Assembly: GCA_037305845.1 (NCBI GenBank)
Contig: CP147778.1
Coordinates: forward strand, 2,144,001 to 2,208,000
Reading direction: 5' to 3'
Length of the DNA: 64,000 nt
Source of the DNA: Candidatus Freyarchaeum deiterrae
Lineage (GTDB): Archaea; Asgardarchaeota; Jordiarchaeia; Jordiarchaeales; Jordiarchaeaceae
Shown here piece after piece: positions 30,254 to 60,011 of this stretch (position 1 is the first letter of the stretch; every line of letters begins with the position of its first letter). The notes beneath the pieces were generated by a model. That model searched no databases. It worked only from the letters and a program-made list of their open reading frames with translations, and was not told where the DNA came from. The translations under genes were made by a program, and so were the position numbers.

Positions 30254-31647
30254 TCACACTATTTTACTCGTCTTCCAAGTGCCCAAGGCACGACCGAGCT
30301 CCTTGTGATCCTCAGCATACTTCTCCAACGGTATACCCTGCACAGAAGCGTCGATAGCCTGACGAAAAGAAGTAGCACCAGCACGAGGACCATCAGGATG
30401 CGCATGAATAGCGCCACCAACACCTACTATGAAATCCTTACCGAGATCCGCCATAATCTGAGGAACAATCTGAACAATGACACCACCAGCAGGCATAGGC
30501 AAAGTAGGCTTCAAATGATAGAACGGAAACGTCAACTCACGCCAAACCTGCAGATAAGTCTCCTTCATGAAAGGAGCTTTTCTGGAGGCTCGGGAACTAC
30601 TTGCACTCAATGTGCGAAATCAGTCTCCCGAATTCCTATTCCAAAGGGCGCTGGGTTAAAATTTTAACAGGGAAGTCCTGTTAAATATACTTCCATGTCA
30701 GCGCCGGCTAGTCTGCAGAATTTTCCTAGTATGAGTCTGGCGTCTACTCCGTATTCTGGTGATGCGTAGTGTACTGCTGCATAGTCTGTGTGTGCTAAAA
30801 CTGGTACTTTTATGCTGGGGTCTTCTGCTAGGTCTCTGAATGTTTCGTATCCTGTTGTGATGATGTTGACCATTAGTGCGTTTGCTCCTAGGTCTATGGC
30901 TTTTTCTGCTAGTTCTAGTGTTTTTTTGGGTCGGTCGGTTATGTTGACTGTGTAGAGTGTTTTTTCTCCTTTTTCTTCGTCTGCTTTGTCGATTGCTTCC
31001 ATGAATTTTACTACCCGGTCTTCTACTCGGTTTAGTTCCATGTCTGCTAGTAGTTCATCGTCTTTGATGAAGTCTACTCCGCCTGCTGCGACTTCGTATG
31101 CTAGGTCTGCTCCTATTTCGCAGGGTGAGTAGACGCAGGGTTTTATCATGTTGTTTAGTATGGGTCGGTCTTTTACTCCCAGTATCTCTCTTACTCCTTT
31201 TATTCCGAATTTTGGTCCTTTGAATCCGCTTACCCATTTTTTGGGGAATTGGAGGTCCAGTAGTTTTATTTTTCCGGCAGCGGAGAGGTTTCCGACTACT
31301 GTGCTCAGGAGTACGGGTAGGTTGGGGTAGCCGAGGTTGGTTATGGGGTACGCGATTTTTATTATCCAGTGTCTTTCTTCTGTTTTTGGTAGCTGCCATT
31401 GGTGTGGTGGGATTTCGAATACTGCTGTTACTCGGGCTGCGTGCAGTCTTCTGACTTCGGGTGTTTCTTTGGGTACGGGTGTCCAGGTTCCGGTGCTTTG
31501 TTCTAGGGCTGCTGCTACGCCCATTGTGTATCCGTCTAGCCATGAGGGCTGGGTTGTGTAGTATGTGGCTATTATGTTTTCTTCGGGGTCTATGCCTTCG
31601 GGTAGTGCTTCCATTGATGTTAATAATTCATAATCTTTTTCGCCCAA
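30254..31647 (-). CDS. RuBisCO-like protein (form IV), spliced from 3 exons: 31647-30687, 30656-30639, 30579-30254
   Basis: EQSTGTW, GPKFGI.G.R, MIKP, GGVDFIKDDELL and HAHPDG..AGA motifs. Removing the 30- and 59-nt inserts gives a continuous 434-aa ORF reading GADMEVYPAPFGKAPF. TTG start follows GGAGG. Confidence 0.88.
30580..30638 (-). other. Putative BHB mRNA intron (59 nt), RLP intron 2
   Basis: Central helix UUGG/CCAG, bulges AAU and AAA, long internal stem. Canonical cuts give GGA A|AA GCU (G-K-A). Confidence 0.85.
30657..30686 (-). other. Putative BHB mRNA intron (30 nt), RLP intron 1
   Basis: Central helix AAGU/AUUU, bulges AUA and UAA, perfect 9-bp inner stem, exon-exon stem GG/CC plus GGCGCUG/CAGCGCC. 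Cuts give GUA U|AC CCA (V-Y-P). Confidence 0.87.
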
Positions 31648-31825
31648 CTTTTTTCCTCCATTTTTAATCAAGTTTATTCGTGGTTGTAGAACTTTTAAAG
31701 TTTTGTTAAGCTCATTTTGTTGTGTGGTTTTGGTTTTCGAGGATTTTAGATAGTTTTTTAAAGGAATTTCGCGTTCTATCTATGAACAGATTCTTGCCGC
31801 TTGTGGTGGGTTAAGAACAGGAGGT

Positions 31826-32299
31826 TTGTTTTTGATTATCGAAGGTGTGACAAGAGACGTTATTAAAGAAATAGTTGATGCGATGGTGGTTGTCTTTAAT
31901 AACCGGGAACCAGAGTTTAAGGAAAAAATGAAGTCTGTTACTAAGGGTAAGCGTAAGGTTTACCGCTTTGACGTTACGGATATTGATCTCAAGTGTGACG
32001 TGGAGCTTACTCCCGAGGGAGATGTTGTGGTTCACTACGATAATTTGCAGAATGAGGAACCAGATTTGATGATTTCCTCGGAAACTGTGGTGTTTGATGG
32101 GGTCATGACTCAGAGGGTTTCTCCAGTGGCGGTCTTTTTGAAGCGGAAGGCTAAAGTGAAAGGTTCCATTAGGGAGTTGAATAAGTTCAGACCTATAATA
32201 CCTGAGATGAGCGTTTCTTACAAAAAGGCTAGGGCTCACATAGCGGAAAAGCACGGTTTACAAGAGGCTCTTAAGAAGCTGGACGAAACTAAAATTTAG
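31826..32299 (+). CDS. SCP2 sterol/lipid-binding domain protein
   Basis: EPDLMIS......F....SPVAVFLKRKAKVKGS pattern typical of SCP2. Confidence 0.65.
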   Translation: MFLIIEGVTRDVIKEIVDAMVVVFNNREPEFKEKMKSVTKGKRKVYRFDVTDIDLKCDVELTPEGDVVVHYDNLQNEEPDLMISSETVVFDGVMTQRVSPVAVFLKRKAKVKGSIRELNKFRPIIPEMSVSYKKARAHIAEKHGLQEALKKLDETKI

Positions 32300-32331
32300 C
32301 GAAAATTAAATCTAAATATCTTAGAAGAAGC

Positions 32332-57723: not shown

Positions 57724-58308
57724 TTAAATAAATTTCGAAGAATCTGTACTTTTAACCCATTCTACGAATTTCCTTAGGGCTCTTGTTCTGTGTGAGATGG
57801 CTGCTTTTTCGGATATATCCATTTCTCCAAATGTTCTCCCGTCTCCTTCTTCAGGAATAAATATTGGGTCGAATCCAAACCCATGTTTTCCCCGAATCTC
57901 TCTACTTATTTCTCCCTTAATTTCGCCTTTGAATGTTAATGTTTTTTTACCGTTACAAAAGGCTATTACCGCCTTGAAGTAAGCGGTTCTATCCTCTACT
58001 TGCGACATTAATTTCAATATTCCCTCGTTTGAGATCGTTTTGGAAACATATGAGGAGTAGGGTCCTGGAAACCCTTTCAGTTCTTTTATGAAGAGGCCAG
58101 CATCTTCCACGAATAAGGGCTTCTCTTGGTCTTCCCATGTTTTCTGGGCGCTGAAAACTGCTATCTCCTCCACGTCATCTGCTTGGATTTCCATAAGTTT
58201 TACTGGTAAGTGCAAAAGAGGTATATTCTCCTCCTTAAAAATTCTTTCCGCTTCTTCTACCTTCATAATGTTACCAGTTGCGAAAAATACAGTTACACGT
58301 TTACTCAT
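57724..58308 (-). CDS. rdgB: XTP/dITP pyrophosphatase (HAM1 family)
   Basis: FATGN..K, VEDAGL, GFPGPYS, GFGFDPIF and SHR motifs; likely ATG at 58308. Confidence 0.92.
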   Translation of the reverse strand: MSKRVTVFFATGNIMKVEEAERIFKEENIPLLHLPVKLMEIQADDVEEIAVFSAQKTWEDQEKPLFVEDAGLFIKELKGFPGPYSSYVSKTISNEGILKLMSQVEDRTAYFKAVIAFCNGKKTLTFKGEIKGEISREIRGKHGFGFDPIFIPEEGDGRTFGEMDISEKAAISHRTRALRKFVEWVKSTDSSKFI

Positions 58309-58333
58309 GTGTACACTTCCCGTAACTTTTTCT

Positions 58334-58960
58334 TTATCTTTCTTTGTGGTATCTTCCTCTTTTTTCAATTTCATTCATTCTTTCGATGACATCCTCTGAT
58401 TTATTCATTGTTGTTTTATACCCCTCGAGAACCGCTTTGAAGCCAAGTTCTGCATAAGCGTAATGGGTGCTTTGAAGAGCTCTGTTCATAAGGTGGAGGT
58501 CGACTCCCTGATCTTCTATTTCGATGGAGTAATCCCCTAGCCCGAAATCAATGAAGTATATACTACTAGAATTTTGGAGTATCATATTTGATGTAGTAAG
58601 ATCCCCGTGTATGATTCCGGCGTTGTGCAGTCGCCCAATTAAGATTCCGATATGGATAAAAAGACTATTTTTTTCCTGCTCACTCATATTTTGGATAACT
58701 GTCTTAATTGGGAATCCTTGGATAAAATCCATTATGATTGTGTTTTCGGCAAGATCAATAGAATAAATCATAGGTGTTGGTACACCTGCTTTTCTAGCAT
58801 CTGAAAGTAAACGAGCCTCTTTAACGGTGCGATCCTTTCTCAGTCTTTCATCGAGTTCCGGAACTCTATATGGTTTAGACACTCTCCTCTTTATAATCAC
58901 TTTTCTGTCGTACCAGTCTTCTAGGTACAGATATGCTTCAGCGCCCTTTTTGTAAAGCAT
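58334..58960 (-). CDS. bud32: KEOPS kinase Bud32
   Basis: KGAEA, K.R..KPYR, IHGDLTTSN, IDFGL and RGRY motifs. Confidence 0.95.
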   Translation of the reverse strand: MLYKKGAEAYLYLEDWYDRKVIIKRRVSKPYRVPELDERLRKDRTVKEARLLSDARKAGVPTPMIYSIDLAENTIIMDFIQGFPIKTVIQNMSEQEKNSLFIHIGILIGRLHNAGIIHGDLTTSNMILQNSSSIYFIDFGLGDYSIEIEDQGVDLHLMNRALQSTHYAYAELGFKAVLEGYKTTMNKSEDVIERMNEIEKRGRYHKER

Positions 58961-60011
58961 TTATCTTAGCACCGTCCTTTGAATCCAGGGTATGTCCACC
59001 TCATCCAGACGCCATTTTGGACGTACGAAGCTTTCTTCGATGCTTGTTTTTTGCCCACTCTTATACGCCAGTAAGCCAGTCCAAGCAATCATAGCTCCAT
59101 TATCCCCCGCTAAATTTTCGGGGACAACATTGAAACTCGCATCATGTTCATTAGAAATCAACTGTAACATCTCCTGTAACCGCTTATTCCTACTAACTCC
59201 GCCTGTCAAAAGAACCTCCTTTTTACCAGTGTGTGCAACTGCTCGCTCGGTTACTTCTGCAAGCATAGAGAAAGCAACTTCCTGTAAACTGTAGCATAGT
59301 TCCTCAATTTTGCACTCTTTACTTTTGTTCAAAGCGGCCGTTAACAGACCCGAATATGACAAATCCATTCCCTTTACTGTGTATGGTAGAGGTATGAATT
59401 TTTTTCCTTCTCTTGCGAGGCGTTCTATTTTTGCACCCCCAGGATGCTGGAGGCCCATTTCTCTTGCAAATACATCTAACATATTACCAATAGCGATGTC
59501 TAAAGTTTCTCCAAAAACTCTGTAGCGTCCCTCATCAAACGCAGTGACTATGGTATTACCCCCCGAAACATAAAGTGTTAGCGGATCTTCTAGCTTCATT
59601 GCCAGTTTACCTATTTCCACGTGCGCTACACAGTGGTTTACACCCACCAGAGGCACGTTTAGCAGTAGTGATAGGGCTCTTGCGGCCGTTGCAGCAGTTC
59701 TTAAGCAAGGTCCTTAAGGGAGAAAGGGATCAAACTCTTCTTAGCCCCGGACCTTGGGAGAAAGCTACCGCATTTATTTCTTTTGTGCTAATGCCTGCCT
59801 TTTCTATAGAGTCTCCTATAACTCTTTTAATTACTGCCGCGTGATGTTGAGCCGCCTCTCTTGGGTGTATACCGCCCTTAAGAGGAATATACTCATCCCA
59901 GATATTTGAGAGAACCACACCTTCATCACTCATTATCCCTGCTCCGAAAGTGTGGGCGGTTCCCTCAAGACCTAAACAATTAACAGGACTTTTTGTATTC
60001 TGTTTTTCCAA
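58961..60011 (-). CDS. kae1: KEOPS t6A tRNA threonylcarbamoyltransferase Kae1, spliced from exons 60011-59743 and 59714-58961
   Basis: After removing 28 nt: LGLEGTAHT...[12 protein letters not shown]...[22 protein letters not shown]...[11 protein letters not shown]...DNGAMIA; 340 aa. Confidence 0.93.
59715..59742 (-). other. Putative BHB mRNA intron (28 nt) in kae1
   Basis: 8-bp exon-exon stem CAAGGUCC/GGACCUUG, central helix GGGG/CCCU, bulges CUA and UAA, inner stem AGAAG/UUUCU. Canonical cuts give GGG CU|A GGA. Confidence 0.92.

What the first reader, a model, noticed from the sequence alone, without database searches (positions are those of the whole stretch)
30254..60011. Candidate mRNA-splicing system: four tRNA-type (BHB) introns in three unrelated protein-coding genes within 30 kb
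Seen: kae1, ychF and the RLP gene are each split by short ORF-less hairpin inserts (28, 31, 30, 59 nt). For kae1 and both RLP inserts, the junctions form a 4-bp helix flanked by two 3-nt bulges, and cutting after the 2nd nt of each bulge restores both frame and conserved motif. The ychF insert fits a relaxed version. Every 3' bulge ends in A, and every unspliced transcript hits a stop or frameshift. Known: BHB motifs are cut by the tRNA-splicing endonuclease EndA and joined by RtcB; the well-established archaeal mRNA example is the crenarchaeal cbf5 intron. Inference: this probable Asgard archaeon splices many mRNAs, which pipelines would mis-annotate as pseudogenes. That bears on post-transcriptional control and on intron origins near the eukaryote root.
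Basis: partly seen in the sequence, partly recalled or inferred. Interest (0 to 1): 0.96.

Follow-up and report, generated by a model that had tools for sequence, protein, structure and literature searches.

The report
tRNA-type introns in Asgard messenger RNAs
Three ordinary protein genes of an Asgard archaeon, and at least 20 more elsewhere in its genome, are interrupted by tiny introns shaped for the tRNA-splicing enzyme, so this archaeon very probably splices many messenger RNAs; the papers I could search report that inside a coding sequence for only one archaeal gene (cbf5).

Summary
Observation confirmed: kae1 (28 nt), ychF (31 nt) and a RuBisCO-like gene (30, 59 nt) carry bulge-helix-bulge (BHB) inserts; the standard cut rule restores the orthologue sequence, and unspliced frames stop within 15 codons. 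The genome is very probably the closed Freyarchaeum genome. The kae1 intron sits at one site in 23 Jordarchaeia, Odinarchaeia and related sequences (13-32 nt; 83/84 central-helix pairs kept, with compensatory changes); nearly all other sampled Asgard kae1 frames are unbroken. A census blind to BHB found the motif at 16 of 25 gene-breaking inserts (chance 3%; 0 of 80 harmless indels); at least 25 introns in all, including the proven cbf5 site. A broad-specificity EndA and a single, itself interrupted rtcB are present. In a related strain two public runs lack the kae1 intron exactly at the predicted cuts while two sister runs have it; library type unknown (run finder closed), so this is spliced RNA or precise DNA loss, not proof. 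Regulation and a link to spliceosomal introns are unsupported. The scan noted such introns before, here and in other Asgard genomes.

The parts
59743..60011 (-). kae1 exon 1 (KEOPS Kae1, profile positions 1-78; start codon uncertain)
   Evidence: TIGR03722
59715..59742 (-). kae1 BHB intron, 28 nt, phase 2 in the Leu codon of GPGL-G; canonical motif
   Evidence: same site in 23 related sequences; joined form
58961..59714 (-). kae1 exon 2; spliced protein about 340 aa; only kae1 in the genome
47721..47757 (-). ychF-related GTPase exon 1 (12 codons plus one base, MLVGIVGKPNSG)
47690..47720 (-). ychF BHB intron, 31 nt, relaxed central helix (3 of 4 pairs), splits the P-loop Lys codon; seen only in this species
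46524..47689 (-). ychF exon 2; spliced protein 400 aa; single copy
30687..31647 (-). RuBisCO-like protein (form IV-like) exon 1; start at 31647 inferred from the 327-aa database call
30657..30686 (-). RLP intron 1, 30 nt, in-frame stop, phase 2 in the Tyr codon of EVY; same site occupied in other strains with compensatory inner-stem changes
30639..30656 (-). RLP micro-exon, 18 nt
30580..30638 (-). RLP intron 2, 59 nt, splits the Lys codon of GKAP (loop-6 region by alignment to RuBisCO, my inference); site also broken in three other strains
30254..30579 (-). RLP exon 3; spliced protein about 434 aa, the length of intact orthologues

Best explanation
The inserts are true pre-mRNA introns. The last six exon bases and the intron fold into a bulge-helix-bulge; the cell's two-subunit (alpha-beta)2 splicing endonuclease cuts after the second base of each bulge and RtcB joins the exons, as for tRNA introns and crenarchaeal cbf5. 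They are one face of a lineage-wide intron load (most tRNA genes of this genome carry introns): hairpin inserts that arrive already excisable are tolerated, persist longest in conserved motifs where only exact removal is viable, and are gained and lost between strains. Shown: motif, frame and motif restoration, conservation, covariation, enzymes present, a joined sequence. Inferred: cleavage by EndA, ligation by RtcB, near-neutral persistence.
For: Cut rule reproduces intron-free orthologues. kae1 intron at one site in 23 sequences, 13-32 nt, 83 of 84 central-helix pairs kept, two-sided changes at pairs 1 and 4, every variant non-productive unspliced; kae1 and ychF single copy. RLP intron 1 inner stem covaries across three strains. 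dN/dS 0.05-0.13 for ychF and about 0.08-0.14 downstream of the RLP introns. BHB-blind census 16/25 against 3.3% chance; four more of the 25 are double or mis-sized calls at BHB sites; 0 of 80 stop-free in-frame indels have the motif. cbf5 intron between bases 1 and 2 of the catalytic Asp codon, the experimentally spliced site. EndA alpha has the Tyr-His-Lys triad and the loop of Aeropyrum EndA (E 8e-43). Contigs of runs SRR28530378/79 lack exactly the predicted 27 nt of kae1 and otherwise match sister runs 82/83 over 12.6 kb with no mismatch and over 9.6 kb with one.
Against: No reads of known RNA origin, no cleavage assay. The run with joined kae1 still has gatE interrupted. The ychF motif is relaxed and seen in one species. 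ychF and RLP show more residue changes on this lineage than on a congener's (27 vs 13, 22 vs 12; kae1 10 vs 10). RLP has a distant intact paralogue (40% identity). Structure-first scans without homology barely beat their nulls.
Confidence: 0.92

Rival explanations
1. Mixed case: the old introns (kae1, cbf5, gatE) are spliced, but the young ychF or RLP inserts are spliced poorly or not at all and these genes are on the way to loss.
For: ychF insert in one species, 3 of 4 central pairs; about twofold more residue changes on this branch for ychF and RLP; RLP introns patchy even within 90% clusters.
Against: No second lesion in either gene; low dN/dS; ychF single copy; both RLP sites reused in other strains; relaxed motifs are substrates of this enzyme type.
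Confidence: 0.1
2. The introns are regulatory switches: splicing efficiency tunes translation-related genes (kae1, ychF, gatE, tyrS, cbf5, rtcB) to tRNA-processing capacity. Compatible with the best explanation, but a stronger claim.
For: Unspliced messages are non-productive in all 25 introns here and all 23 kae1 variants, including the four of in-frame length; kae1 intron kept across three Asgard families; rtcB needs its own product.
Against: Host genes are functionally mixed; gains and losses between strains; intron sequences not conserved; the census looked for broken genes, so non-productivity is partly built in, and one strain's RLP protein reads through intron 1.
Confidence: 0.2
3. Ribosomal bypassing or other recoding skips the hairpins without RNA cleavage.
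For: Short stem-loops next to stop codons resemble bypass signals (my knowledge).
Against: None of the four window introns has matched take-off and landing codons, and most of the 25 split a codon; lengths vary freely from 13 to 32 nt; the joined nucleic-acid sequence exists.
Confidence: 0.02
4. Pseudogenes from small mobile hairpins, or assembly errors.
For: Metagenome-assembled genome; inserts are hairpins.
Against: Present in independent assemblies; no multi-copy intron family, few flanking repeats; conserved for long times in a single-copy universal gene; exon-intron covariation.
Confidence: 0.02

Closest known systems
cbf5 pre-mRNA BHB intron of Desulfurococcales and Sulfolobales (PMC2738675)
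   Same: Short intron in a coding sequence, BHB or relaxed BHB junction, cut between bulge bases 2 and 3, interrupts a key codon, two-subunit EndA, patchy gain and loss; this genome has an intron at that very cbf5 site.
   Different: At least 25 introns in 22 genes, not one; up to three per gene with an 18-nt micro-exon; Asgard lineages; no cDNA of known origin or cleavage assay yet.
HVO_1309 5'-UTR BHB intron of Haloferax volcanii (PMC7714728)
   Same: mRNA substrate of the splicing endonuclease.
   Different: Outside the reading frame, single case; that paper names cbf5 as the only other archaeal mRNA example.
Non-canonical tRNA introns of Freyarchaeia/Jordarchaeia and Atabeyarchaeia (PMC11291895; bioRxiv 10.64898/2026.10.13.758758)
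   Same: Same organism or lineage, same motif and enzyme, repeated gains.
   Different: The passages found deal with tRNA genes only; the preprint has no occurrence of mRNA or cbf5.
Eukaryotic non-spliceosomal mRNA splicing (HAC1/XBP1 by Ire1 with Trl1 or RtcB; from memory)
   Same: Endonuclease plus tRNA ligase removes a short frame-changing mRNA intron.
   Different: Different nuclease and motif, one regulated target; not tested here.

Membership tests
Archaeal BHB (EndA-type) intron | 4-bp central helix between two 3-nt bulges, or a recognised relaxed form | tested here: met
   three with 4 of 4 pairs, ychF 3 of 4
Archaeal BHB (EndA-type) intron | Cut after the second base of each bulge gives the functional sequence | tested here: met
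   against intron-free orthologues, joined contigs match the predicted cut (one base of sliding ambiguity)
Archaeal BHB (EndA-type) intron | Structure, not sequence, is conserved | tested here: met
   kae1; RLP intron 1; not testable for ychF
Archaeal BHB (EndA-type) intron | Host encodes EndA able to cut relaxed motifs, and a ligase | tested here: met
   (sequence level only)
Archaeal BHB (EndA-type) intron | Spliced RNA or excised circle in vivo | tested here: inconclusive
Archaeal BHB (EndA-type) intron | Cleavage by EndA in vitro | not testable with these tools
   bench experiment
Group I/II or spliceosomal intron | Ribozyme fold or GU-AG ends with branch site | tested here: not met
   28-59 nt, no Rfam match, ends do not follow GU-AG
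Miniature mobile element | Multiple copies and target-site duplication | tested here: not met
   no second copy, longest partial match 17-21 nt; most junctions have 0-2 repeated bases
Programmed ribosomal bypass | Matched take-off and landing codons | tested here: not met

The most novel reading that the evidence does not exclude
Several Asgard lineages run a genome-wide, protein-catalysed mRNA splicing system: tens of genes, among them single-copy kae1, rtcB and, in Odinarchaeum yellowstonii, the only actin gene, give full-length protein only after tRNA-type splicing, and splicing efficiency is used to control their expression.
Probability: 0.25. Interest if true: 0.95.

Novelty: new variant of a known kind. 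Interest (0 to 1): 0.86.

Why it matters
It would turn archaeal mRNA splicing from a one-gene curiosity into a routine step in relatives of the eukaryote ancestor, with multi-intron genes and micro-exons. It changes annotation: nearly every Jordarchaeia-type Kae1 and every Jordarchaeia-type GatE seen in the protein collection is truncated, and Odinarchaeum actin would be called with a wrong C-terminus, which affects gene-content and phylogenomic work on Asgards. It gives a testable system for how introns are gained, fixed in conserved motifs and precisely lost. It does not by itself explain spliceosomal introns.

Tried and rejected
Structure-first scans without homology were too noisy to count introns (best class 38 vs 13 and 19). 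Searching for introns shared at one site between genomes recovered kae1, gatE and one more, amid false hits at gene borders. A second break in one congener's kae1 is a scaffold gap. The pattern scan of 185,579 genomes needed CCGG and part of the downstream motif, so other split kae1 genes could be missed; its non-Asgard hits were intact genes or unrelated. No joined kae1 in JGI metagenomes: 0 joined, 5 with insert. The four run accessions are in no paper held. An intron-free RLP at 94% identity (P0355) is a different strain from the interrupted P0348, so it is not a spliced/unspliced pair. Slippage between the flanking 5-base repeats would delete 26 nt, not the 27 observed. Seven literature searches found no report of multiple archaeal coding-sequence introns; subscription journals are mostly not covered.
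Full report
Source. The window lies in a single 3,576,204-base contig, 40.7% GC. Size, closure and relatives fit the complete 3.58-Mbp wetland-soil Freyarchaeum genome of PMC11291895, in which 92-95% of tRNA genes carry introns; the passages found there mention no mRNA introns. 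The identification is my inference. Relatives are labelled Jordarchaeia/Freyarchaeota.

Observation. All four inserts are real and fold as described. The cut after the second base of each bulge restores GPGLGPC in Kae1, the P-loop GKT in the YchF-related GTPase and EVYPAPFGKAPF in the RuBisCO-like protein; these equal the intron-free orthologues. The pieces match adjacent parts of the same profiles. Chance per position is 5e-6 to 5e-4. The ychF insert is in five independent assemblies.

kae1. It is single copy. The intron is at the same base in 10 of 10 Jordarchaeia genomes with a match, 4 of 4 Odinarchaeia and 3 genomes of a further family, plus a related strain and five metagenome contigs. 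Length ranges 13-32 nt and the sequence differs, yet 83 of 84 central-helix pairs over 21 distinct variants are kept, with changes on both sides at pair 1 (G-U or G-C to C-G) and pair 4 (G-C to U-G or C-G); all 23 variants stop early if unspliced, including the four of in-frame length. These sequences are kin, so the counts are not independent events. Nearly all other sampled Asgard kae1 frames are unbroken (eight checked base by base), and a scan of 185,579 species found the split form only in these lineages.

ychF and RLP. The ychF intron is confined to this species among 59 genomes with a match; the gene is single copy with dN/dS 0.05-0.13. Both RLP sites are broken in other strains and intact in close relatives; the inner stem of intron 1 changes in compensatory fashion in three strains. 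Both genes show about twice as many residue changes on this branch as on a congener's, which kae1 does not: slight relaxation is not excluded.

Genome-wide. Breaks were located by protein homology alone and only then tested for the motif: 16 of 25 high-confidence breaks carry it against 3.3% at random positions; four of the other nine are double or mis-sized calls at BHB sites. None of 80 stop-free in-frame insertions in three genomes does. With a structure-first, homology-checked pass the list is at least 25 introns in 22 genes, most 20-33 nt: alba, rtcB, gatE, cbf5, porA, nadE, ppsA, moaE, tyrS, ahcY (three), pcm, rps26e, endoQ, leuC and others (names from the peptides and from earlier notes). 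Bulges begin with A in 21/24 and 20/24 cases; no intron is repeated in the genome. The cbf5 intron is at the site proven in Crenarchaeota. Odinarchaeum yellowstonii (named) and a Jordarchaeales genome carry their own sets.

Machinery. Two EndA paralogues are intact: alpha has Tyr, His, Lys and the loop aligned to that of Aeropyrum EndA, its best match among solved structures; beta lacks the His. Enzymes of this type cut relaxed motifs (PMC5829648). The single rtcB is itself interrupted.

A joined sequence. All close Kae1 relatives in the protein collection are truncated at the intron except two. These come from runs SRR28530378 and 79; the same strain (80% nucleotide identity to the window) appears in runs 82 and 83 with a 27-nt canonical intron. 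The contigs differ by exactly that intron at the predicted cuts, with no mismatch over 12.6 kb and one over 9.6 kb; run 79 shares that one variant with run 83, as paired libraries would. Repeat slippage would remove 26 nt. Against a simple RNA reading, these contigs span intergenic DNA, and a gatE contig from run 79, shared by four samples, keeps its intron; that motif lacks the outer helix and may splice slowly, or DNA may dominate there. I put RNA origin at about 60-65%. The alternative, precise loss in DNA, is most simply explained by recombination with a copy of spliced mRNA, as proposed for cbf5. Either way the junction follows the BHB rule, but this is not direct proof and concerns a relative.

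Mechanism and rivals. EndA cleavage and RtcB ligation is the best reading (0.92). Bypassing lacks matched codons; mobile elements, pseudogenes and assembly errors fail on copy number, conservation and independent assemblies. Regulation is possible but unshown.

Known versus new. Known: cbf5 and one 5'-UTR intron in Haloferax. A 2026 preprint on Asgard tRNA introns does not mention mRNA. I found no paper on many coding-sequence introns in archaea. The mechanism is a known kind; scale, multi-intron genes and lineages are new. Earlier notes of this scan describe the same thing in this genome and in other Asgard genomes; they are leads, not evidence, and those in this genome were largely recovered by my own census.

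Noticed in passing
L098:9134-9167 (G011 C1:535634-535667, +): The only actin gene of Odinarchaeum yellowstonii is split by a 34-nt canonical BHB insert; removal restores ERMYSVWIGGS and the last 38 residues. Another Odin genome has it intact.
   Followed up: partly
G011 C1:578672, 630086, 738042, 827298, 852814, 1251671: Further BHB-type breaks in Odinarchaeum protein genes (27-31 nt).
   Followed up: partly
G004 C1:259820, 445963, 549889, 565612, 615266, 711449: BHB-type breaks in a Jordarchaeales genome, including elongation factor 2 and hydrogenase genes; gatE and ppsA sites are shared with this genome.
   Followed up: partly
G000 C1:987065-2636190: All 25 curated introns lie in the middle 1.65 Mb of the chromosome; this may only reflect where conserved genes with references lie.
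   Followed up: no
G000 C1:1876203-1877066: ahcY has three introns (56, 29, 191 nt), the longest seen.
   Followed up: partly
L284:about 2130-2200: In another strain RLP intron 1 seems to need a longer 3' bulge (33 nt) or leaves three extra bases (30 nt); and P0361 reads through an in-frame, stop-free intron 1.
   Followed up: no
G000 C1:343853-344737 (L029): Second, intact RuBisCO-family gene, closer to form III (40% identity to the window RLP).
   Followed up: no
window:30254-31671: The RLP gene changes strand composition abruptly near the introns: A/C-rich codons upstream, T/G-rich downstream on the coding strand.
   Followed up: no
window:55484-60756: kae1, bud32 and a probable pcc1 lie in one same-strand string with rps24e, rps27ae, a Ham1 gene, rps15 and a RecJ-like gene.
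   Followed up: no
G000 C1:2485075: Single-base frameshift in a radical SAM gene at a homopolymer run, without a BHB motif.
   Followed up: no
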